A DNA stretch of 36,755 bases from a virus. Its lineage: Duplodnaviria > Heunggongvirae > Uroviricota > Caudoviricetes. Shown here one piece after another: positions 27,750-36,755 of the stretch. Where the stretch lies: positions 1-36,755 of IMG/VR virus record IMGVR_UViG_2778261460_000001. One strand, 5' to 3'. The notes under the pieces are model-generated. The model had not been told where the DNA came from, did not search any database, and was given only the letters and a program-made list of their open reading frames with translations. The stretch's first letter is position 1, and every line of letters starts with the position of its first letter. A program made the translations under genes and the position numbers.

Positions 27750-27968
27750 GTGGAGAAACATATGCTGAACCTCGATTGTGTTCCTATCTCAACTTATTGC
27801 AAAGAAACTGGCGAAACTCCTGAAGCAATAAACAAACGTGTACAGCGCGGTGTTTGGCGTGAAGGTGTTCAGGTTTTAAAGGTTGAAGGCGTTAAGGAGA
27901 GGTGGATTGATCTTAGTGAGGTTGCAAAATGGGCCAGACAAAACTGCTCAAACTACCGCGCGGCGTAA
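27750..27968 (+). CDS. Excisionase-like protein (putative Xis)
   Basis: 72-aa ORF immediately upstream of and overlapping the integrase start. Confidence 0.45.
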   Translation: MEKHMLNLDCVPISTYCKETGETPEAINKRVQRGVWREGVQVLKVEGVKERWIDLSEVAKWARQNCSNYRAA

Positions 27969-29095
27969 CAATCAGGAAACACCGCCAGGGCGAAACGATC
28001 AATATAACTTTCACCTACAAAGGTGTTAAATGTCGTGAGCCTCTTTCCAATCTGGAAGTAACACCAAAGAACATTAAATACGCCGAGCGCACACTCGGCG
28101 AAATTCATAATAAGATCGAAAGGGGAACATTCATTTATGCGGAATATTTTCCCCGTTCTGCTCGTTTGAAAATTTTTGGTAATGCTGCTGCAGGCAAAAC
28201 GGTAAAAATGTACCTGGACGAATACCTTGAAATCTGCGAAACGAGAAAACTTTCACCCTCTACGATTGGTGGCTATAAAAAATGCCGTAGTGCGTTAGCC
28301 TCACTTCACATTTGCCCTGCAAGTGAATTAACACCAGCAACCCTGAAAGCGTGGATTCAAAATCAGAAAACGACCTTAAAAACAATTCGCAACCAGTTAT
28401 CTTTCCTGCGGTCAGCACTTGATGAAGCCGTGACCGATGGGGTACTTCAAATTAACCCCGTATCGTTAGTAACAGCTTCGCGCTACCAAAGTGATAAGTC
28501 AGAAGCAGAAAGCAGCTACGTAGTTGATCCGCTATCACCAGCAGAAGTTGATGCATTACTAGCAGCAGCCGGAAACAAACAATGGGAAAATCTGTTCCGG
28601 TTCGCTATACATACAGGCCTGCGTAGTTCTGAATTATGTGCCCTTCGATGGCGTGATATCGACTTTGTTGGAAAAACTGCCCATGTCCAGAGCGCAAGTG
28701 TTGTCGGTGTTATCAAAGGGACAAAGACAAAAGCAGGTACTCGGAAAGTTGAACTGACAGAAGAGGCAATGTTGGCGCTGATAAATCAGAAGCCATTTAC
28801 ATTCATGAAGGATACTACTGTCTTTGAAGATCCAAAGACCAATAAGCCTTGGGCAAGTGCTGATGCAATTAGGAAAAAAGCATGGGTGCCAACATTGCGA
28901 AAAGCAGGTATTCGTTACAGAAACCCATATCAAACCAGGCATACATTCGCCACCAGCCATATCAGCCGAGGAGCAAACCTGTTTTGGCTTGCAGCTCAAA
29001 TGGGGCATAAAGGGCCGGAGATGCTTTTCAGGCACTATGGTCGATATCTCAAAGAATACGACGGAAAAAGCTCCATCAAATACATTATACAATGA
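27929..29095 (+). CDS. Tyrosine integrase (lambda Int family)
   Basis: 388-aa ORF with the catalytic R…H-x-x-R…Y tetrad context (…HTGLRSSELCALRWRDID…, …RHTFATSHISRGANLFWLAAQMGHKGPEMLFRHYGRYL…). Confidence 0.85.
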   Translation: MGQTKLLKLPRGVTIRKHRQGETINITFTYKGVKCREPLSNLEVTPKNIKYAERTLGEIHNKIERGTFIYAEYFPRSARLKIFGNAAAGKTVKMYLDEYLEICETRKLSPSTIGGYKKCRSALASLHICPASELTPATLKAWIQNQKTTLKTIRNQLSFLRSALDEAVTDGVLQINPVSLVTASRYQSDKSEAESSYVVDPLSPAEVDALLAAAGNKQWENLFRFAIHTGLRSSELCALRWRDIDFVGKTAHVQSASVVGVIKGTKTKAGTRKVELTEEAMLALINQKPFTFMKDTTVFEDPKTNKPWASADAIRKKAWVPTLRKAGIRYRNPYQTRHTFATSHISRGANLFWLAAQMGHKGPEMLFRHYGRYLKEYDGKSSIKYIIQ

Positions 29096-29099
29096 TTAT

Positions 29100-29118
29100 G
29101 GCGGCATTTATTGCCGCC
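29100..29118. terminator. Hairpin between convergent genes
   Basis: GGCGGCA-TTTAT-TGCCGCC, a 7-bp perfect stem directly after the integrase stop and overlapping the stop of the convergent membrane-protein gene. Confidence 0.4.
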
Positions 29119-29737
29119 CACATAATTCATTATGCCATTTATCCAAGTAACAATCCAATTGTTTTAATGTTTTCAATACATATACAGGCTTACGTGGAGG
29201 ATGATTTTTTTGAAAAGAATCATATAAATGCATTATGAAATCGACACAAGCACTAGATACATTCTGAGCGCGAAAAACCCTATATGACTTATTAAAACAA
29301 TATGATTTCTCACATTCCATAGTAGCTTCATCTATAATATTAGAAAAATACGAAATTGTTATTTTTATCCCCCTCTCATCGAGAAGATTAATGTATTTAT
29401 TTATTTGTATGGCTTTTCCATGAATTGCCGTTAAATATATTTTCGCCGACTGAGTATGCAATCCATTAGAGTTCTTAAAACTTTTTTTCTTAAATGGATT
29501 AGAATCTGGTGGTATTGACTTATTAACCCAGTAATCCAGAGACAAATCTGATATTTCGTTTAAAATTTTAGCAATCGCATCTATAATCGATTTAGATTCA
29601 GAGCGAGTAGCAATCTTCAGTGAATTATTGTAAGTAACAAACCATCCAATAAACACTAAGATAATACTCACAACACTAAACATCCATGCGTAAGTGGACA
29701 CCCCTGCAAGGGTGTCCTTAATATCAACGGTGTTCAA
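29108..29737 (-). CDS. Membrane protein, third gene of the GHKL/STAS operon (candidate effector)
   Basis: A hydrophobic segment (YAWMFSVVSIILVFIGWFVTY) predicts one transmembrane helix. Start is ambiguous: the track start at 29821 is a GTG with no Shine-Dalgarno and an 83-nt overlap, whereas a TTG at 29737 sits 5 nt after AGGAG and 2 nt after the upstream stop; an ATG at 29683 is also possible. AT-rich. Confidence 0.45.
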   Translation of the reverse strand: MNTVDIKDTLAGVSTYAWMFSVVSIILVFIGWFVTYNNSLKIATRSESKSIIDAIAKILNEISDLSLDYWVNKSIPPDSNPFKKKSFKNSNGLHTQSAKIYLTAIHGKAIQINKYINLLDERGIKITISYFSNIIDEATMECEKSYCFNKSYRVFRAQNVSSACVDFIMHLYDSFQKNHPPRKPVYVLKTLKQLDCYLDKWHNELCGRQ

Positions 29738-29738
29738 A

Positions 29739-30080
29739 TCAACTCCTTTGGAAAGGCTTCCTTTCTGGATTAGCCATTTCAATATATCTAAAAATTTGAT
29801 CTTTATAGAACGGCAAATCACTTTTTATAATTAGTTTTGCCTTAATGTCAGCCTTAGGTACACCTTCCTTCCTAACAAGCCCTCCAAAGGCCTCCTCTAG
29901 AAACGAAGAACCAATCCCATGATTTATACCCGTAAAATCTACGACAACCTCACGCTCACCAGATTTTAATGCAGGAACCAGAAAGTCCTTACGAAAACGC
30001 TCAGCACTGTTCGGGCTGTCAGACTTGAACCTTCCAAATGGCATCTTTGAGAAATCCCTTGCTATGACGATGTTAACCAT
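29739..30080 (-). CDS. STAS-like (DUF4325-like) small protein
   Basis: 113-aa ORF with a strong Shine-Dalgarno (GGAGAGGAGAAG) that overlaps the upstream ATPase stop by 8 nt. The segment …EVVVDFTGINHGIGSSFLEEAFGGL… resembles STAS/anti-sigma-antagonist-like folds. Confidence 0.5.
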   Translation of the reverse strand: MVNIVIARDFSKMPFGRFKSDSPNSAERFRKDFLVPALKSGEREVVVDFTGINHGIGSSFLEEAFGGLVRKEGVPKADIKAKLIIKSDLPFYKDQIFRYIEMANPERKPFQRS

Positions 30081-30996
30081 CTTCTCCTCTCCTCGGAACT
30101 AATGACCATTCAATCAATGTTCCCGGCATGTACTCAGGTATCCACTCGCATTTGGGAACCTCATTTCTTGAATTATAGCTGTACTTAACATTCCCTGTGA
30201 ACACCAAAAGTGATTCTGAATTCGCACAGCCAGACCCTATAGGTCTCTTTATATCCTCAGAACCATTACCACGTCCAGCGTTAACATATCTGGACTGTCC
30301 TCCTGTCAGGGCTGTTGACACAGATGTCACGTCGTCATACCCAGTAAACAACGGAGAGGCTGAAGTAAATGATTTATGTATGCCAAGCCCAAGATCATAA
30401 ATAATAAAGACAACCTTGTCTGTGTCAGGGTTGTACCAACAACTCTGCCACCATCGTTTCCCTTGCATATGCTCTGTAGCACCAGCAAAGTCTGGATGTT
30501 CATATGCATGATATGAAACATTCAGCATTGCCTCACTAAGGGCTGAGGAGACCAAAAGATATTGCTCAAATGTGAGAATTGCTTTTGAATCAATAAATTC
30601 CATCGTTTTAGCCCAATGTTCATACGGTTCCACAGCAGACTGAAAGTACCTGCGTTCCTTAGTAAGAACATCTAATTTATCAACTGTATTTGCCATTAGA
30701 GCAATCGATAACCCCGTCCCAACAATATATCGATGCCCATACGGATTATTTTCTTTTTTCGGCCAAATAAATCGAAGACTACTTGTGCCGAATGCCATAA
30801 AATAAGCCCTACTGATGATAGCAAACAACCTTACGCTAGCTGCAGCACCTGCATATTCTACTGTCGAAAAGTCTATAACCACTTGTCCAGATGCTCTCGC
30901 AAGGGTGTTATCAACTGAGTTCAAAAACTTAGCTGTAACACGGCGATCAGAATCATTATAAAGGCACAATCTTTTTGGGGAAATCAACAGTTCCAT
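30073..30996 (-). CDS. GHKL-family ATPase / kinase-like protein (HATPase_c-type)
   Basis: 307-aa ORF with a GAGGTG Shine-Dalgarno. Bergerat-fold motifs appear in canonical order and spacing: N-box (LSEAMLNVSYHA), G1 (IYDLGLGIH = DxGxG), G2 (GRGNGSEDI = GxGxG). There is no H-box, so it is not a classical histidine kinase. Confidence 0.6.
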   Translation of the reverse strand: MELLISPKRLCLYNDSDRRVTAKFLNSVDNTLARASGQVVIDFSTVEYAGAAASVRLFAIISRAYFMAFGTSSLRFIWPKKENNPYGHRYIVGTGLSIALMANTVDKLDVLTKERRYFQSAVEPYEHWAKTMEFIDSKAILTFEQYLLVSSALSEAMLNVSYHAYEHPDFAGATEHMQGKRWWQSCWYNPDTDKVVFIIYDLGLGIHKSFTSASPLFTGYDDVTSVSTALTGGQSRYVNAGRGNGSEDIKRPIGSGCANSESLLVFTGNVKYSYNSRNEVPKCEWIPEYMPGTLIEWSLVPRRGEDG

Positions 30997-31137
30997 GGCG
31001 ACACCTCAGCCAAATCTGTCTAGTCAAAAATGAGCAAAATAAATTACTATAAAATAATGACGAAGTGCACGTTTTTGATACGCAAAGATTGCAGGAAGAA
31101 ATTAAACTTTATTTTTCATACACATAAATTCAATCAT

Positions 31138-31167
31138 ACGCGGGTTCAACTCCCGCCAGCTCCACCA
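31138..31167 (+). other. ssrA: tmRNA (ssrA) 3'-terminal fragment, putative integration core (att)
   Basis: ACGCGGGTTCAACTCCCGCCAGCTCCACCA matches the T-arm plus acceptor 3' strand plus CCA of enterobacterial tmRNA. Upstream sequence is not tmRNA, so this is a duplicated 3' end, not the gene. Confidence 0.7.
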
Positions 31168-31332
31168 CTTTTTAGTTGTTTGAAGTTCAATGAAGTCTAC
31201 TAAGCCCACACAGCACAAGCTCTGCGGGCTTTTTTACGTCTATTGTCGTCCAGTGAGAATTGCTGAGAACTACGAGTTATGGCACCCTGAATGGGACCCA
31301 CTAAGAAGGGTCCAAAAACCGAGGGTCCCAAA

Positions 31333-32562
31333 ATGGCAAAAATCGCTAAGAAGCTCACTGACACTGAAATCAAAAGCACCAAGCCAGCCGATAAAGAAAT
31401 CAACTTGTTTGACGGTGATGGTCTGATTCTACGAATCGCTCCTTTGGCGAAAGGAGGCAAGAAAAATTGGTATTTCAGGTATGCAGTACCAGTGAGCAAG
31501 AAAAGAACCAAAATGAGCCTTGGGACATATCCTCACCTTACCCTTGCAAGAGCCAGAGCCTTACGTGATGAATATCTCTCCTTTCTGGCAAATGGTGTTG
31601 ATCCCCAAATCCATAACAACGATAAGGCGAAGGCATTAAAGAGTGCTACTGAGCACACTCTCCAAGCCGTAGCGCGGAAATGGTTAGATGAGAAGGTAAA
31701 GACATCAGGTATCTCACAAGACCATGCAGCAGACATCTGGCGCAGCTTAGAGAGAAATGTCTTTCCCGGTCTGGGTAATGTCCCTATCAATGAGATCCGA
31801 CCTAAGCTCTTAAAACAACACCTTGATCCTATTGAGCAACGAGGCGTATTGGAAACTCTACGCCGTATCATTTCACGTCTGAATGAAATCTTCCGGTGGG
31901 CAGCTACTGAAGAACTTATTGAGTTCAACCCGGCTGACAACCTTGGTCAAAGATTCAGTAAACCAAAAAAGCAAAATATGCCTGCCCTTCCCCCAAGCGA
32001 ATTGCCAAGGTTTATGGAATCTTTGACGAATGCGTCAATCCGGTTGGAAACACGTATGCTAATTGAATGGCAATTGTTGACATGGGTTCGTCCGGGTGAA
32101 GCCGTTCGCGCAAGGTGGTCTGATATTGATACAACCAACAGCATTTGGAACATTCCTGCTGATTTCATGAAAATGAAAAAGCTTCACAAAGTTCCTTTGA
32201 GTAAAGAAGCTTTGCGCATCCTTGAATTAATGAAATCAATAAGTGGGCATAGAGAATGGGTTTTCCCCAGCATAAAAGCGCCTCTTAATCATATGCATGA
32301 ACAAACAGCCAACGCAGCTATCATCCGAATGGGGTTCGGAGGCGAGCTTGTAGCTCACGGTATGCGTTCTATTGCACGAACAGCGGCAGAGGAGTCTGGT
32401 AAATTCAGAGCTGAAGTTCTTGAGGCAGCGCTTGCCCACTCGAAAAAAGATGAAATTATCGCAGCATACAATCGTGCAGAATATCTGATAGAGCGACAGA
32501 GTTTGATGCAATGGTGGAGTGATTACGTTCAAGCTCAAAGATCAAATGCTCTGGTAGCCTAA
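31333..32562 (+). CDS. P4-type (CP4-57-like) tyrosine integrase
   Basis: Start set to ATG 31333 with GAGGG upstream (the track ORF begins at 31291). The N-terminus (MAKIAKKLTDTEIKSTKPADKEINLFDGDGLILRIAPLAKGGKKNWYFRY) is the P4-integrase-family signature, and a C-terminal catalytic region follows (…HGMRSIARTAAEE…AHS…Y…). It sits about 165 nt downstream of the ssrA fragment on the same strand. Confidence 0.85.
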   Translation: MAKIAKKLTDTEIKSTKPADKEINLFDGDGLILRIAPLAKGGKKNWYFRYAVPVSKKRTKMSLGTYPHLTLARARALRDEYLSFLANGVDPQIHNNDKAKALKSATEHTLQAVARKWLDEKVKTSGISQDHAADIWRSLERNVFPGLGNVPINEIRPKLLKQHLDPIEQRGVLETLRRIISRLNEIFRWAATEELIEFNPADNLGQRFSKPKKQNMPALPPSELPRFMESLTNASIRLETRMLIEWQLLTWVRPGEAVRARWSDIDTTNSIWNIPADFMKMKKLHKVPLSKEALRILELMKSISGHREWVFPSIKAPLNHMHEQTANAAIIRMGFGGELVAHGMRSIARTAAEESGKFRAEVLEAALAHSKKDEIIAAYNRAEYLIERQSLMQWWSDYVQAQRSNALVA

Positions 32563-32600
32563 GTATCAGAATAGCTAATATAATCCTGAAGGTAAAGAAA

Positions 32601-33017
32601 ATGGAAACCCTATTCAAAGTTTTTGAAAAATTTAGTTCCAGACCACTTTTTTTTATTTTTTTCGGACTCTCACTTTGTGAATTTTTTCAGAAACAATCTG
32701 TTCTGATGAATCCATCAGCAGATAACATCGCGAAATTATTCGCAGCCATGATATTAGTTGTTTTTTTTACTTGGGGATTTGAATGGCTAATCTTCAAGTT
32801 CAATGTAAACCTTGAACCTCATGATCAAGGCGATATTGGACCAACAATTGGAACGGCTACTTTAGCTGTATACTTAGTTTATGCCTTTCACTTTCTCAGT
32901 GAAAATCCTGAAGCATTAAATTTAAAGTTATTAACTAACTCTGGCTTTATATACAGCACAACTCTATTATTATTCTCATTAGAATGCATGAAGCTTAGAA
33001 GACTTAAACAAAAATAA
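32601..33017 (+). CDS. Small multi-pass membrane protein
   Basis: 138-aa AT-rich ORF with 3 to 4 predicted transmembrane helices and an AAGGTAAAG Shine-Dalgarno-like sequence upstream; convergent with the receiver-effector gene. Confidence 0.4.
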   Translation: METLFKVFEKFSSRPLFFIFFGLSLCEFFQKQSVLMNPSADNIAKLFAAMILVVFFTWGFEWLIFKFNVNLEPHDQGDIGPTIGTATLAVYLVYAFHFLSENPEALNLKLLTNSGFIYSTTLLLFSLECMKLRRLKQK

Positions 33018-33088
33018 ACAACATCATTGTGATGATAAATATAAAATAGGCATGGCGAAAAAAAATCACCACGCCTAAAATATAATAA

Positions 33089-34855
33089 TTATGGTAGCAT
33101 CATTGATACATAATCCACACCAATCCTTGAGCTATACTGAGACGCTATAGCCTGATATCTTTCTGCATAACCAGTTCTCAGTTGAGATTTAAGTTTGAGT
33201 CGGACAGGAACATTTTGCACGTTGCCATCCATATTACTTAAAAACACGGCAGAAATAATATTTTTTTCTTCGCCATCAACTGTTGTTCCATGATTCAACA
33301 CCACCATATAATCAACAACAGGAAGCGTTTTATCCCCTTCGAAAATAGAGAGATATTTTCTTTGATTTTTATGCATTACATATATATATTTCGAATGTTC
33401 AGCAAATGGCAATGCTTTACTCTGACTGGCGTTAAAAAGCTCCAGAACTTTAATGAGCCTGTGCGGACTTAATCTTACATGGTGAGGGTCGTTACCCTGA
33501 GTAGGAACCAAATCACATGCCGCAGATACACATAAATACCATTTGTTCGACTCTGTATCAAAGAAAATAGTGCCAGTAGAAATATGACCATCTTCAAAAT
33601 TCTTTGAAGACAAATTCATATTTAAAGCATGATACATTTCGTGATAAGTATCATTATTTGATGGCAGATCCATTTTTGAAGAGCAATATTGGAGCAATGC
33701 AGCAACTCCGCTGTTAGCGTATTCATTTGAATAGCTATCAAAAACACTTTTGATAAATTCATCCAGCGTATTATTATTTTTAAGTCTTTGATAAAGCTCT
33801 TCTGATAAATTACCAAATACAAAGTCAATATTTCTACATCTAATATCAGGCGAGTCTGATTTTAATATCTCATTTAACCACGCAGCTTGACCGTAATGAT
33901 CGTTAGCCAAATGATTTACAAAAGATAAAGCCTCAGCTTCGATTGCATTCTGAATTTCAGATTTTATTAACTGATAATAAGATGGTTTCCATTCAATGAG
34001 AGAATCATTGAGAGTTTGCCAAATCCTATCTCCATCGTTTTCATGATCATCTTGAACCTTATGAAATAGGGAGACAAAGATATTACCACATTGAATCCAT
34101 TTTACTCCGCTTTCATCACCCCGAATGACATTGCCAGATGTGTTGCTAGAAATAATTGCATTTCTAGACACAGCATATTCTGCAATCATTTTTGCAATGA
34201 AGTTTTTATCCTTTTGATCCTCCAACACAGCATCATCATGTATTAATCTTTTAATTCTTCTACAAGGCTTACTGTCTTTAATATAGGCTATTGTTTCATC
34301 TCTTGTGAGAGCTTTATTACCATTATCATTTAAGTTCGGTAATACAACGTCTTCCCAATAACTTTGGACATCTTCATTATCGTAGTCAATGATCAAGCTG
34401 TTGATATCCAGAGCACCTTTGAGAGTCGATGATATCTGCATCCAAACCGTTTCTAAATTCTCTCTAGTATATATTACAATCATATTTAAATGATCGGAGT
34501 CTTTCAAATCTTGTAATAGTTTAAGTGTTTTATCAGGTGCATTATTATCAAGATGATAATCTACAATAATAAGATCTGATTTCCTAATCCGATCCACACC
34601 GAAATTAACAGAACCATTGTCAACATCACAAATCATATTTTTAGATTGAAAAAAGCTCTCAAGAGTAGCGGCTCGTTTAGATGAGTCAATTTTGTTGTAG
34701 TCTAAATCAACTTCGTTATTCAACGCCCTGATTGATTCAGAATACGTCAGAAAATCGTCATCAATCATGACAACGGAACGAATTGCATTTTCGCAGAAAG
34801 TTTTCTGGACAAGAGAATTATAATTTGCCACTGTCATATTAGAACTCCACTCCAT
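33089..34855 (-). CDS. Receiver (REC)-like domain protein with a large uncharacterised C-terminal domain (candidate effector)
   Basis: N-terminal receiver-like landmarks: acidic pocket (VVMIDDDF), candidate phospho-acceptor Asp (SDLIIVDYHL) and the conserved Thr region (MIVIYT), followed by about 400 aa with no motif I recognise. An alternative start at ATG 34837 has a GGAGTGGAG Shine-Dalgarno. It overlaps the upstream kinase gene stop. Very AT-rich. Confidence 0.55.
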   Translation of the reverse strand: MEWSSNMTVANYNSLVQKTFCENAIRSVVMIDDDFLTYSESIRALNNEVDLDYNKIDSSKRAATLESFFQSKNMICDVDNGSVNFGVDRIRKSDLIIVDYHLDNNAPDKTLKLLQDLKDSDHLNMIVIYTRENLETVWMQISSTLKGALDINSLIIDYDNEDVQSYWEDVVLPNLNDNGNKALTRDETIAYIKDSKPCRRIKRLIHDDAVLEDQKDKNFIAKMIAEYAVSRNAIISSNTSGNVIRGDESGVKWIQCGNIFVSLFHKVQDDHENDGDRIWQTLNDSLIEWKPSYYQLIKSEIQNAIEAEALSFVNHLANDHYGQAAWLNEILKSDSPDIRCRNIDFVFGNLSEELYQRLKNNNTLDEFIKSVFDSYSNEYANSGVAALLQYCSSKMDLPSNNDTYHEMYHALNMNLSSKNFEDGHISTGTIFFDTESNKWYLCVSAACDLVPTQGNDPHHVRLSPHRLIKVLELFNASQSKALPFAEHSKYIYVMHKNQRKYLSIFEGDKTLPVVDYMVVLNHGTTVDGEEKNIISAVFLSNMDGNVQNVPVRLKLKSQLRTGYAERYQAIASQYSSRIGVDYVSMMLP

Positions 34856-36557
34856 TGAACTGGATCACAAAATTAGCGCCATCTTTTATTAAATAGTTAT
34901 CGCCTTCATCAGGTTCTGAATACCATATTTTATGATGTGCAACAGCAAGGTTTTCTCGACATAGATACAGACCTACCCCATGTCCATTTGCTCTTTTGCT
35001 ATAAAATAGTTCAAATAGTCGCGGGATATCATCGGTATCAATTGCCGGACCAGAATTTGCTATGATAACCAAAGAATTCACAAAACCAATCTTTATGAGC
35101 CTATTATTTGACAGACTGACCCAATACATTGCATTGTTGATAATATTAGTAAAAACAGGATAGATCCTTGATGGTATATCTGTTATTGCGATTTGCTTAA
35201 ACTCTTCACTAAATTCAATAGTTATTCGTTGCCGTTCGAAACGCTCCCCAAAGAACTTCAGGACATAATCCATGATATTTTTTCCAGTTATTCTCTGCCT
35301 GGATTGATAACCTGATATTTTCAAAGGTGATAAGAAACGTATTTGTTGAGTAAGCGATCTGTGAGCATTTAACGCCAATGAAAAACCAGGGTGTTCTTTT
35401 ACAGAAGTAGGAAGAGAGTTTAGTCCTCTGGTTACCATAGAATCCATTTCTTCAAGTTCATGAGATATTATCTCAACACTAATACCTAACTGTGCAAGCG
35501 CGTTTAAACTTTTAGCTTTTTCTTCAAAATATGAGCGTTCTTCTTCAGATAATGAGAATGCTGAATCTAAGTTTATACCTTCAAATAATCTATCGAGACC
35601 TTTTATTATTGATTGATATTTGAAAGTTAGGGTATCAACTGACTCAACATATAAACTATCGAGCAAATTAAACACATTTTCAATTTGTGAATCATTATCT
35701 ATTGAATCAACAACTGATATAGTTTTAGCATAATAATCACTTCGATCAACCTTTATTTCATCGGCCCATTTTTTTAAAAGAGAATGTATCTTCTCCTCTA
35801 TCGTGTTATTAAACTTAGTTAGTTTAGAATTAATAATACCTTGATTTTTTTCAAGGTGATTTTTCGCTGACAATGAAGGCTCAAGTTTATTTAATTCAGA
35901 ATCAAGTTTATTAATTGCTAACTTCATTTGTAGAATATACGCAGAGAACTCATTAAATTTATCTCTGTAGTCTCTATATTTCTCTTCATACATTCCAAGT
36001 TTTGGAGGTTTGATAGGCGTTTTAATTTCACTGCGCAACGCATCTAAGTTTGTAAGATCACTGTCTATAATTTTAAGATAGTTTAAATCTAACGAACCAT
36101 CAGTTTTATCAAGCTTAGTTTTCAGCCTTTTAACAGCCTCCAAGGAAGCATCAAGAACTGGTGTCTGATTCTTCAAAGCTTCTGAAAAACTTTTTTGTGT
36201 TGATTTTCGAGCTTGTTGTTGAGCAGATTTTCTTAACTCTTTTTCACGCTTAACTTGTTCTAAAAGCTCTTTACGGTCATCAGAACGTGAACCAAAAAAT
36301 CTATCAGCAAGTTCAGTTAACAAATTAGATATAATAGTTTTCAGTTCTCTTGCAGCCTGGTTTCTTATGAATCCCTCTCTCCCCGACTTATCTTTCAGCT
36401 CTTTATTACTGGATTGAGTAATTCCAATATAACCAAAAATCCTTCTATTAGACCAATAATATCGCCCTGCATTCCATGAACGTCTTTCTTCTATCTGGAA
36501 GAAATCATTATCTACTCGACCATAAGGTAATACTCTCAAGCTATCCCTAAAAATCAT
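34839..36557 (-). CDS. Histidine-kinase-like protein (HisKA-type H-box plus HATPase_c), cytoplasmic, possibly 5'-truncated
   Basis: H-box-like (…LAQLGISVEIISHELEEM…), N-box (FTNIINNAMYW) and G2 (ANGHGVGLYL), with no transmembrane segments and a long helical N-terminal region. The reading frame stays open upstream of the ATG at 36557 right up to the IS3 terminus at 36679. Confidence 0.65.
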   Translation of the reverse strand: MIFRDSLRVLPYGRVDNDFFQIEERRSWNAGRYYWSNRRIFGYIGITQSSNKELKDKSGREGFIRNQAARELKTIISNLLTELADRFFGSRSDDRKELLEQVKREKELRKSAQQQARKSTQKSFSEALKNQTPVLDASLEAVKRLKTKLDKTDGSLDLNYLKIIDSDLTNLDALRSEIKTPIKPPKLGMYEEKYRDYRDKFNEFSAYILQMKLAINKLDSELNKLEPSLSAKNHLEKNQGIINSKLTKFNNTIEEKIHSLLKKWADEIKVDRSDYYAKTISVVDSIDNDSQIENVFNLLDSLYVESVDTLTFKYQSIIKGLDRLFEGINLDSAFSLSEEERSYFEEKAKSLNALAQLGISVEIISHELEEMDSMVTRGLNSLPTSVKEHPGFSLALNAHRSLTQQIRFLSPLKISGYQSRQRITGKNIMDYVLKFFGERFERQRITIEFSEEFKQIAITDIPSRIYPVFTNIINNAMYWVSLSNNRLIKIGFVNSLVIIANSGPAIDTDDIPRLFELFYSKRANGHGVGLYLCRENLAVAHHKIWYSEPDEGDNYLIKDGANFVIQFNGVEF

Positions 36558-36678
36558 TAGTCCTGCATACTTTTTGGCCTTAAGATCAAAGTGGGAATGT
36601 TCACGTTCAGTATGTGATGTATTTTGTGAAAGGAATTCAAACGTTCCTATCTGAAGCTCAAATGGGCCGACCCCTGCG

Positions 36679-36755
36679 TGATCCTACCCACGTAATATGG
36701 ACACAGGCCTAAGCGAGGTTCTTGTTTTCAAATTGTTCCGGACTGAGGCCGCCAC
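36679..36755 (-). mobile_element. IS3-family insertion sequence, terminal inverted repeat and transposase (orfB) 3' end (partial)
   Basis: The terminus TGATCCTACCCACGTAATATGGACACAGGCC at 36679 matches the IS3 inverted repeat as I recall it. The minus strand encodes the transposase C-terminus …GGLSPEQFENKNLA-stop (stop at 36709-36711). The element continues past the window end. Confidence 0.65.

What the first reader, a model, noticed from the sequence alone, without database searches (positions are those of the whole stretch)
29108..30996. Three-gene operon (GHKL ATPase, STAS-like protein, membrane protein) between the phage integrase and the ssrA att core
Between the integrase and the att core, where temperate phages commonly carry morons and defence cargo, lies an AT-rich, translationally coupled operon. 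The 307-aa protein has a complete Bergerat ATP-binding fold (N, G1, G2 boxes) but no His-phosphorylation box, like anti-sigma-factor Ser kinases. The 113-aa protein looks STAS/antagonist-like, and the third gene encodes a single-pass membrane protein. A partner-switching kinase/antagonist module coupled to a membrane protein on a prophage is, as far as I can tell from sequence, not a described defence or exclusion system.
Basis: partly seen in the sequence, partly recalled or inferred. Interest (0 to 1): 0.8.

Follow-up and report, generated by a model that had tools for sequence, protein, structure and literature searches.

The report
Prophage kinase–STAS–membrane protein switch module
At the edge of an E. 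coli prophage lies a self-contained three-gene cassette (a serine-kinase-like ATPase, its small STAS-type partner and a one-helix membrane protein) that looks like an undescribed membrane-effector sibling of the recently published VapKSC anti-phage toxin–antitoxin system.

Summary
Three translationally coupled minus-strand genes (30996-29108) lie between a prophage integrase and the ssrA att core, in AT-rich DNA.

What the genes are:
- **Gene 1 (307 aa):** an N-terminal STAS-like domain fused to a SpoIIAB-like GHKL kinase domain.
- **Gene 2 (113 aa):** a DUF4325 STAS protein with an invariant GSSF serine motif.
- **Gene 3 (209 aa):** an N-out/C-in single-pass membrane protein with a cytoplasmic four-helix bundle.

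The ordered trio is kept in 68 of the 70 other loci I collected that carry this kinase family (Enterobacterales to Haemophilus, Pasteurella, Vibrio, Pseudoalteromonas). It sits at int-att junctions of different prophages, after lysis or tail genes, downstream of a cI-like repressor, on a conjugative plasmid, and beside Zorya II and PD-Lambda-5.

VapKSC (EMBO J 2026) has the same STAS-GHKL kinase plus DUF4325 STAS antitoxin, but with a PIN toxin. Here the kinase is only a remote relative (hhalign E about 2e-5), and the third gene is a membrane protein from a small family of its own.

Best reading: a phosphorylation-gated membrane effector carried as prophage defence or exclusion cargo. This is a new variant of a known kind. 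The function is inferred, not shown.

The parts
30073..30996 (-). Gene 1, 'K': 307-aa protein with an N-terminal STAS-like domain (about 1-120) and a C-terminal GHKL (SpoIIAB/RsbW-type) kinase domain (about 125-305)
   Evidence: ORF. Family alignment A1 has invariant N, G1, G2 and G3 boxes. 30 of 37 family members hit Pfam HATPase_c_2. AF2 pLDDT 87.5 and Foldseek best match SpoIIAB, target TM 0.77. hhalign to the VapK family E=1.6e-5 over 245 columns spanning both domains. PHROG phrog_3364, unknown function, E=2e-45.
29739..30080 (-). Gene 2, 'S': 113-aa single-domain STAS-like protein (Pfam DUF4325) with an invariant G57-S58-S59-F60-L61-E-E-x-F-G-G motif; candidate phospho-acceptor S58/S59
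   Evidence: Pfam PF14213 E=8e-15. VapS itself hits PF14213 at E=2.7e-17. hhalign of A2 against VapS gives E=2.3e-5 with the serine motif aligned to VapS S48. S59 is kept in 42/42 distinct orthologues.
29108..29737 (-). Gene 3, 'M': 209-aa single-pass membrane protein with a short N-terminal tail outside, a TM helix at 17-35, a conserved juxtamembrane stripe (R45-S46-E47-S48-K49, D53, K57, E61, D64, W70), a disordered linker at 74-95 and a cytoplasmic four-helix bundle at 96-207
   Evidence: ORF and SD/TTG start. A3 alignment. AF2 pLDDT 80.7. 50 of 51 distinct orthologues have more K/R on the C-side of the helix, 3.7 against 0.67. Only 163 clusters in 1.84 billion representatives, all 65-289 aa. 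phrog_30059, unknown function.
30997..31137 (-). AT-rich leader between the att core and gene 1; presumed own promoter of the operon, reading from the prophage end inward
   Evidence: Sequence. No sigma-70 consensus match fell in this stretch, so the promoter is inferred from position only.
29059..29078 (-). Weak terminator-like hairpin about 30 nt after the gene 3 stop, inside the 3' end of the convergent integrase gene
   Evidence: Consensus scan only, 3 G-C pairs; the number of such sites in the region is not above shuffled expectation.
31138..31172 (+). Context: att core, a duplicated 3' end of ssrA (tmRNA) marking the prophage boundary
   Evidence: Matches ssrA/att regions of ssrA-integrating phages, including an annotated ssrA in phage CP-1639. 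Sequence read. ARAGORN finds no complete tmRNA in the window.
27929..29095 (+). Context: prophage tyrosine integrase (388 aa), convergent with the operon
   Evidence: Pfam Arm-DNA-bind_2 + Phage_integrase. It is always linked to the trio in E. coli/Salmonella contigs while the other flank varies.

Best explanation
This is a self-contained, horizontally mobile three-gene switch carried as prophage cargo. It is built like the VapKSC toxin-antitoxin/anti-phage system but has a membrane protein as its output.

Shown by sequence and structure prediction: K is a STAS-GHKL protein with an intact SpoIIAB-type ATP site. S is a DUF4325 STAS protein with an invariant serine at the canonical acceptor position. 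M is an N-out/C-in single-pass membrane protein whose conserved juxtamembrane helix and four-helix bundle face the cytoplasm, where K and S are.

Inferred mechanism: in the resting lysogen, unphosphorylated S binds the cytoplasmic part of M and keeps it inert. An infection-associated cue acts on the STAS-GHKL sensor kinase; by analogy this would be ssDNA or DNA damage, but it may differ. K then phosphorylates S on S58/S59, and phospho-S lets go. No phosphatase is encoded, so the switch is one-way. Freed M self-associates in the inner membrane and collapses membrane integrity or blocks entry or maturation of the invading phage. This protects the lysogen population by abortive infection or exclusion.
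For: Architecture and homology:
- K's GHKL fold is closest to SpoIIAB, and its catalytic boxes are invariant.
- K is co-linear with the VapK family over both domains (hhalign E=1.6e-5).
- S and VapS both belong to PF14213, and their serine motifs align.
- K's own STAS domain has AAA where an acceptor Ser would be, as VapK has none. This fits a sensor role rather than a substrate role.
- Gene order and sizes match E. coli VapKSC.

Module behaviour:
- The K-S-M order with tight or overlapping junctions is kept in 68 of 70 loci from Enterobacterales, Pasteurellales, Vibrionales and Alteromonadales.
- The Francisella phage KIRK gene table lists a 293-aa ORF, a 112-aa DUF4325 ORF and a 125-aa TM ORF next to cI (PMC7924643).

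Cargo positions typical of lysogen-expressed defence genes:
- int-att junctions of at least three different integrase types.
- After the lysis cassette and after tail genes.
- Directly downstream of, and co-oriented with, a cI-like repressor in a Pasteurella phage-plasmid, the position lambda rexAB occupies.
- On a conjugative Vibrio plasmid.
- 39 IMG/VR viral contigs carry the family.
- The immediate downstream neighbour is an integrase in 16 of 44 non-redundant contexts.
- Known defence systems (Zorya II, PD-Lambda-5, Old, PDC-S04) lie within three ORFs upstream in several loci.

Other points:
- Topology puts M's conserved surface in the cytoplasm.
- No sigma factor or PP2C phosphatase travels with the cassette.
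- M is the fastest-evolving part, at 24-40% identity where S keeps 40-75%, as is usual for effectors.
Against: - No experiment exists for this family: kinase activity, the S-M interaction, M toxicity and phage protection are all inferred.
- Similarity to VapK/VapS is remote (hhalign probability 73-79%, 15-24% identity). BLASTP of S against VapS is insignificant.
- S lacks the C-terminal helix through which VapS inhibits VapC, so the inhibition mode cannot be the same.
- The aromatic residue equivalent to the proposed ssDNA-stacking VapK F54 is Y/F in only 23 of 37 family members, so the trigger may differ.
- A DNA-damage-triggered suicide module would fire during the prophage's own SOS induction, which is awkward for a prophage gene.
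- The trio is rare: 10 of 5426 complete E. coli genomes, and absent from 50,697 deposited phage genomes by tblastn.
Confidence: 0.5

Rival explanations
1. The membrane protein is the input, not the output. M acts as a membrane-anchored sensor or scaffold, for example detecting phage DNA injection or envelope stress. It recruits S or K to the membrane, and the real output is K acting as an anti-sigma-like binder or kinase on a host or phage protein encoded elsewhere.
Against: Four-helix bundles match one another non-specifically; designed bundles and talin rods score equally well. Those sensor domains are periplasmic, whereas M's bundle is predicted to be cytoplasmic. The cassette moves as a closed trio between unrelated phages, plasmids and hosts with no conserved fourth gene. 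In the one characterised relative, the third gene is the toxin.
Confidence: 0.2
2. It is a plain addiction (post-segregational killing) or stabilising toxin-antitoxin module for mobile elements, with no specific anti-phage role. Alternatively it is a constitutive superinfection-exclusion membrane protein whose level or activity the K/S pair merely tunes.
For: It is always on or next to mobile DNA. Variants with a truncated or missing M gene but intact K and S exist (L015, L048), which is the direction of decay expected if M is the toxic part. A HigBA-like pair sits next to it in Haemophilus.
Against: A sensor kinase with conserved catalytic residues is unnecessary for simple addiction. The cargo positions and defence-system neighbours and the protection shown for VapKSC favour a triggered immune role. 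The two roles are not mutually exclusive.
Confidence: 0.15
3. It is a phage life-cycle regulator. The trio would control lysis timing (holin/antiholin-like) or the lysogeny/induction decision of its own prophage in response to DNA damage.
For: In Providencia the trio follows the holin-endolysin-spanin genes on the same strand. There is a faint Pfam hit of M to a holin family (E=0.17). The relatives CapK and VapK respond to DNA damage, the classical induction signal.
Against: The holin hit is far below threshold. In most phages the trio is at the int-att end, convergent with int and with its own leader. The same cassette occurs on a conjugative plasmid and in chromosomal sites with no phage genes. 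It is absent from most relatives of these phages (10 of 5426 E. coli genomes), so it is accessory.
Confidence: 0.07

Closest known systems
VapKSC (VapK kinase, VapS STAS antitoxin, VapC PIN toxin; Chambers et al., EMBO J 2026, PMC13373217)
   Same: Both are three genes in the order kinase, STAS, effector, of about 300/115/205 aa with tight junctions. K is an N-terminal STAS plus a C-terminal GHKL kinase with no acceptor Ser in its own STAS. S is a Pfam DUF4325 protein with a conserved Ser at the start of helix 2. No phosphatase is encoded. Both sit at the edge of prophages in E. coli.
   Different: The third gene is a single-pass membrane protein with a helical bundle, not a PIN nuclease. K is only remotely related (15% identity, hhalign E about 2e-5) and has family-specific invariant motifs (RWWQC, GRGNGSEDIK). 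S lacks the C-terminal inhibitory helix of VapS. The aromatic residue proposed to stack on ssDNA is not conserved throughout. No experimental data exist for this family.
CapK/CapS transcriptional switch upstream of CBASS, Bub and Thoeris operons (same paper)
   Same: A STAS-GHKL kinase phosphorylates a STAS-domain partner on a conserved serine, giving a one-way switch linked to immune genes.
   Different: CapK has an extra N-terminal HTH, and CapS carries a wHTH DNA-binding domain and acts as a repressor. Here K starts directly with the STAS domain and S is a bare 113-aa STAS domain, so regulation must work through protein-protein contact rather than DNA binding.
Classical partner-switching modules (SpoIIAB/SpoIIAA, RsbW/RsbV)
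   Same: The kinase domain fold and motifs (Foldseek best target TM to SpoIIAB; HATPase_c_2 hits), and a STAS antagonist with an acceptor serine.
   Different: No sigma factor and no PP2C phosphatase are in or near the cassette. K carries a fused STAS domain. A membrane protein is the third partner. The module is mobile prophage or plasmid cargo rather than a core regulon.
Lambda RexAB and other prophage membrane-acting exclusion/abortive systems
   Same: A lysogen-expressed cytoplasmic sensor plus an inner-membrane protein. In a Pasteurella phage-plasmid, and per its gene table in Francisella phage KIRK, the trio sits beside the cI-like repressor gene (in the Pasteurella record directly downstream and co-oriented), the rexAB position.
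   Different: There is no sequence or fold similarity. RexB has four TM helices and RexA is not a kinase. This is an analogy of logic and position only (RexAB properties are from my own knowledge, not tested here).

Membership tests
VapKSC | Kinase component with STAS + GHKL domains | tested here: met
   AF2 plus Foldseek give a GHKL fold. Profile-profile alignment to 25 VapK-family proteins covers both domains, E=1.6e-5, probability 79%. The relation is remote, so this is a separate family with the same architecture.
VapKSC | STAS (DUF4325) partner with an absolutely conserved Ser/Thr (VapS S48) | tested here: met
   PF14213 E=8e-15 for the window protein and 2.7e-17 for VapS. hhalign aligns G-S58-S59-F with A-S48-P-F. 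S59 is present in 42/42 distinct orthologues. Register uncertainty is plus or minus 1 residue.
VapKSC | C-terminal helix of the STAS protein that reaches the toxin active site (VapS 94-116) | tested here: not met
   The alignment to VapS ends at residue 104 of 113. Most orthologues end at about 107 with no conserved tail.
VapKSC | VapC-like PIN nuclease as third gene | tested here: not met
   The third gene has no PIN hit. It is a TM helix plus helical bundle. All 70 loci carry this membrane family or a TM-like ORF, never a PIN protein. Genuine E. coli VapKSC does show PIN.
VapKSC | Kinase activated by ssDNA through a conserved aromatic residue (VapK F54 / CapK W68) | tested here: inconclusive
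   The aligned column (Y48) is F/Y in 23 of 37 members and L/M/K/V/H/R/E in the rest. Binding itself is not testable with these tools.
VapKSC | Protects against phage; toxin neutralised by unphosphorylated STAS protein | not testable with these tools
   Needs plaque and toxicity assays.
CapK/CapS regulators | N-terminal HTH on the kinase and wHTH DNA-binding domain on the STAS protein | tested here: not met
   K begins with the STAS-like strand at residue 2. S is 113 aa with only the STAS domain.
Anti-sigma partner-switching (SpoIIAB/RsbW type) | Cognate sigma factor and PP2C phosphatase in the module | tested here: not met
   Pfam-annotated neighbourhoods of about 20 distinct contexts show neither travelling with the trio. 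A sigma-70 family gene near the Pseudoalteromonas locus is on the opposite strand with a TonB-like gene and is not conserved elsewhere.
Known defence systems in PADLOC-DB v2.0.0 | Any component matches a model of a known or candidate defence protein | tested here: not met
   K and S give no hit. M hits only PDLC00707 (CBASS-type 2TM effector) at E=0.0024, 15 bits. Distant third-gene orthologues give no hit.
Phage holins | Significant match to a holin family and a place in the lysis cassette | tested here: not met
   Phage_holin_6_1 E=0.17, against a gathering score of 24.9 bits. The operon is at the int-att end, not in the lysis cassette of this prophage.

The most novel reading that the evidence does not exclude
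This would be the founding example of a membrane-effector branch of the kinase-STAS immune switches. A prophage-borne, phosphorylation-gated single-pass membrane toxin or exclusion protein is held off by a DUF4325 STAS protein and released by a STAS-GHKL sensor kinase. The kinase's trigger may not be ssDNA: the proposed ssDNA-stacking residue is not conserved, and a DNA-damage trigger would clash with prophage induction. If so, the K-S pair is a general, exchangeable trigger-and-latch cassette that can be wired to chemically unrelated effectors (nuclease, repressor, membrane protein).
Probability: 0.45. Interest if true: 0.65.

Novelty: new variant of a known kind. Interest (0 to 1): 0.52.

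Why it matters
Serine phosphorylation of STAS proteins has only just been linked to phage immunity, through one nuclease toxin and one repressor. A second, independently evolved trio with a membrane output would show that the kinase-STAS pair is a portable latch for different effectors.

It would also add a compact, about 1.9-kb prophage-borne system to the catalogue of lysogen-encoded defences. And it would give three 'unknown function' phage orthologous groups (phrog_3364, phrog_5816 in part, phrog_30059) and Pfam DUF4325 a testable role.

The cassette is small, comes from E. coli, and its predicted key residues are known (K N159, S S58/S59). The model can therefore be tested directly with standard plaque, toxicity and Phos-tag assays.

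Tried and rejected
- **Sequence searches of solved structures.** The S protein and its family profile found nothing relevant; only chance hits at E about 0.5 appeared, and the VapS-VapC entry 9Z7O was not retrieved. The K profile found only RsbW, at E=0.26.
- **PADLOC.** No credible hit for any component, nor for VapS. VapK gave only a weak, non-credible hit to a DrmA model (E=0.00034, 15.8 bits), so this 2023 library simply predates these systems.
- **NCBIfam.** Only a sub-threshold anti-sigma F factor (SpoIIAB) hit for K.
- **Deposited phage genomes.** No tblastn match to K; only the att region matched at the DNA level.
- **Direct BLASTP of S against VapS.** Insignificant. The relationship only appears through Pfam and profile comparison.
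- **First hhalign of the K profile against the single VapK sequence.** It shifted the STAS domain by one beta-alpha unit. The profile-profile run gave the structurally sensible register.
- **Promoter and terminator scans.** No sigma-70 consensus in the leader and no convincing terminator.
- **Literature searches.** Searches for partner-switching or STAS in phage defence beyond the CapK/VapK paper returned nothing.
- **Holin idea.** Considered and dropped because the hit is weak and the gene position is wrong.
- **Classical sigma-factor regulation.** Considered and dropped because no sigma factor or phosphatase co-travels with the cassette.
Full report
**1. What is there**

The window is E. coli chromosome. 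The stretch 29000-31300 is 99.5-100% identical over its full length in 7 complete E. coli genomes (10 of 5426 cover at least 80% of it) and absent from the rest, which share only the att/ssrA-flank part. RefSeq annotates it as 'hypothetical protein / STAS-like domain-containing protein / hypothetical protein' next to a site-specific integrase.

Three minus-strand ORFs fill 30996-29108:
- The first stop overlaps the second start (ATGGTTAA).
- The third gene starts at TTG one base after the second stop, behind a perfect AAGGAG.
- GC falls to 0.35-0.42 against 0.45-0.59 in the prophage body.

To the left is a convergent 388-aa tyrosine integrase. To the right, after a 140-nt AT-rich leader, is the 3' end of ssrA, followed by the native ssrA terminator region and a second, P4-type integrase that opens another island.

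**2. The three proteins**

*K (307 aa).*
- Single-sequence Pfam is weak (HATPase_c_2, E=0.028), but 30 of 37 family members hit that family (best 1.9e-5).
- The family alignment keeps E155, N159, H163-A164-Y165, D201xGxG205, R242-G243-x-G245-S246 and G292-T293 invariant.
- The AlphaFold2 model is confident (pLDDT 87.5, pTM 0.88).
- All of its top Foldseek PDB matches are GHKL-type ATPase or kinase proteins. The best by target coverage is the anti-sigma kinase SpoIIAB (1l0o_A, TM 0.77, rmsd 3.8 A, probability 1.00).
- Residues 1-120 form a separate alternating strand-helix domain. It aligns with the STAS domain of the VapK family. It has A51-A52-A53 where a phospho-acceptor serine would sit.

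*S (113 aa).*
- It is a clear member of Pfam DUF4325, 'STAS-like' (E=8e-15).
- Fourteen orthologues share an invariant G-S-S-F-L-E-E-x-F-G-G block.
- Across 42 distinct orthologues S59 is never lost, and S58 is S/T in 40.

*M (209 aa).*
- It has one hydrophobic helix (17-35).
- 50 of 51 distinct orthologues carry more K/R on the C-terminal side (3.7 against 0.67), so the bulk of the protein should be cytoplasmic.
- The model (pLDDT 80.7) shows one long helix (3-73) running from the membrane into the cytoplasm, a disordered linker, and a four-helix bundle.
- The most conserved surface is a charged stripe on the juxtamembrane helix: R45-S46-E47-S48-K49, D53, K57, E61, D64, W70.
- The family is small, at 163 clusters in 1.84 billion representatives, all 65-289 aa and never fused to another domain.
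- It has no informative structural or family match.
- All three proteins fall in PHROG families of unknown function.

**3. Is the trio a unit, and where does it live?**

In 70 further loci collected through the kinase family (species-representative genomes, contigs encoding selected homologues, IMG/VR viral contigs and two plasmids), K is always followed by S. S is followed by an M-family or M-like N-terminal-TM ORF in 68, with gaps of -41 to +35 nt. In the other two the third gene is truncated or missing. Hosts span Enterobacterales, Haemophilus, Pasteurella, Vibrio, Cognaticolwellia, Pseudoalteromonas and Oceanospirillaceae.

Identity to the window proteins is 40-75% for S, 34-58% for K and 24-40% for M in the same genomes.

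Contexts:
- In E. coli and Salmonella the trio is always welded to the same integrase, while the other flank varies: bare host DNA, P4-like elements or a P2-like prophage. It therefore belongs to the prophage.
- In Klebsiella it sits at the int-att junction of prophages with two other integrase types.
- In Yersinia it follows tail genes.
- In Providencia it lies between the lysis cassette and the terminase.
- In a 54-kb Pasteurella phage-plasmid it lies directly downstream of, and co-oriented with, the cI-like repressor.
- In Vibrio scophthalmi it is on a conjugative plasmid.
- In Pseudoalteromonas it is chromosomal, with no mobile-element genes nearby.
- Thirty-nine IMG/VR viral contigs carry it.

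In 44 non-redundant contexts, the immediate downstream neighbour is a tyrosine integrase in 16, and a small terminase or Rha-type phage gene in several more. Within three ORFs upstream, one locus each carries Zorya type II (L069), PD-Lambda-5, Old and PDC-S04.

The published gene table of Francisella phage KIRK lists a 293-aa ORF, a 112-aa DUF4325 ORF and a 125-aa TM ORF next to its cI repressor (PMC7924643).

**4. Closest known system**

Chambers et al. (EMBO J 2026, PMC13373217) describe two related systems:
- **CapK/CapS.** A HTH-STAS-GHKL kinase, activated by ssDNA, phosphorylates a STAS-wHTH repressor.
- **VapKSC.** This is a three-gene operon. A STAS-GHKL kinase (VapK) is proposed to phosphorylate S48 of a STAS protein (VapS), which otherwise neutralises a PIN toxin (VapC). 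The operon gave about 100-fold protection against phage Bas42.

I recovered the VapK and VapS sequences from the paper's supplementary model file and compared them with the window proteins:
- VapS is a DUF4325 protein (E=2.7e-17), like S.
- The S-family profile aligns to VapS at E=2.3e-5 with the serine motifs superposed.
- The K-family profile aligns to a 25-member VapK-family profile over 245 columns spanning both domains (E=1.6e-5, probability 79%, 15% identity).
- E. coli VapKSC has the same order and sizes (297/116/203 aa, third gene PIN) and also sits at a prophage edge.

The differences are real:
- The third gene here is a membrane protein, not a nuclease.
- S lacks the C-terminal helix through which VapS blocks VapC.
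- K is a distinct family with its own invariant motifs.
- The aromatic residue equivalent to VapK F54 is F/Y in only 23 of 37 members.

The paper does not mention any membrane-protein variant. No other paper in the held library links STAS or DUF4325 with such a system.

**5. Mechanism**

Shown:
- an intact kinase-type ATP site;
- a STAS partner with an invariant serine at the canonical acceptor position;
- a cytoplasm-facing conserved surface on a membrane protein;
- tight operon coupling;
- no phosphatase or sigma factor in the cassette;
- mobile, cargo-type distribution.

Inferred by analogy with VapKSC and SpoIIAB/SpoIIAA: S holds M inactive. A cue sensed by K's STAS-GHKL unit switches on phosphorylation of S58/S59. 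Phospho-S dissociates, and M then acts in the membrane. This gives abortive infection or exclusion that benefits the lysogen.

I put about 0.85 on the structural statement that this is a kinase-STAS latch module of the VapKS/CapKS type wired to a membrane protein and carried as mobile cargo. I put about 0.5 on the full functional model.

Main doubts:
- whether M is the output or an input/scaffold;
- what the trigger is;
- how a DNA-damage trigger could coexist with prophage induction.

**6. Verdict**

Its novelty claim has been overtaken by a 2026 paper that established the kind.

What remains new is a distinct family with a membrane effector, widespread but rare, and largely prophage-borne. 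I class it as a new variant of a known kind. It is of moderate interest and directly testable.

Noticed in passing
window 31291-36755: A second element is integrated in tandem at ssrA. It has a P4-type integrase (31291-32562, +) and a 138-aa hydrophobic ORF with no family (32601-33017, +). On the minus strand it has a 572-aa HEF_HK + HATPase_c histidine-kinase-like protein (34839-36557) overlapping a 588-aa protein with an N-terminal Response_reg_2 receiver domain (33089-34855). GC is about 0.33 and there are no PADLOC hits. It looks like a two-component-style conflict system.
   Followed up: partly
L069 3299-6968 (IMG/VR UViG_2878596458_000004) and other loci in alignment A6: The three ORFs directly upstream of one trio have the sizes of the strong ZorA, ZorB and ZorE (Zorya type II) matches found in the pooled scan; the assignment to this locus is inferred from ORF sizes. 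PD-Lambda-5 A+B, Old, PDC-S04 and a type II methyltransferase each appear next to a trio in other loci. I did not map which locus holds which.
   Followed up: partly
L071 5167-7635 (Pasteurella multocida 'plasmid' NZ_CP112899.1): This 54-kb circular record is a lambdoid phage-plasmid (cI/cro/cII, O/P-like replication, NinB/NinG, Q). The trio sits right after the cI-like repressor on the same strand, the position rexAB holds in lambda.
   Followed up: partly
L015 11260-11565; L048 after 3148: Two loci keep intact K and S genes but have a truncated (101 aa) or missing third gene. This is the direction of decay expected if the membrane protein is the harmful part.
   Followed up: no
window 29739-30080 (PHROG match): The S protein matches only positions 340-438 of the 441-position profile phrog_5816. 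Some phage proteins therefore carry a DUF4325 domain fused behind a large N-terminal part, possibly a fused kinase.
   Followed up: no
window 29108-29737, residues 43-49 of the protein: The invariant juxtamembrane motif A-T-R-S-E-S-K is kept as R[ST]E[ST]K in 38 of 51 distinct orthologues. It is a Ser/Thr-rich stripe that could be a docking site or a second kinase target.
   Followed up: partly
L009 8109-8697 (Haemophilus parahaemolyticus MAG): A HigB/HigA-like pair of small ORFs (98 and 96 aa) lies immediately downstream of a trio whose third gene is a shorter (150 aa) N-terminal-TM protein, undetectable by tblastn.
   Followed up: no
L073-L075 5001-6860 (E. coli contigs): Genuine E. coli VapKSC (297/116/203 aa; the third gene is a weak PIN hit) lies between host genes and the tail-fibre end of a P2/HP1-like prophage. 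The published system is therefore also prophage-edge cargo.
   Followed up: partly
L029 1-7627 (Klebsiella): A P4-like satellite (AlpA, Ash, Ogr/Delta, Psu, integrase) carries an OLD-like AAA_15 + TOPRIM nuclease. It is integrated in tandem next to a trio-bearing prophage, mirroring the tandem arrangement in the window.
   Followed up: no
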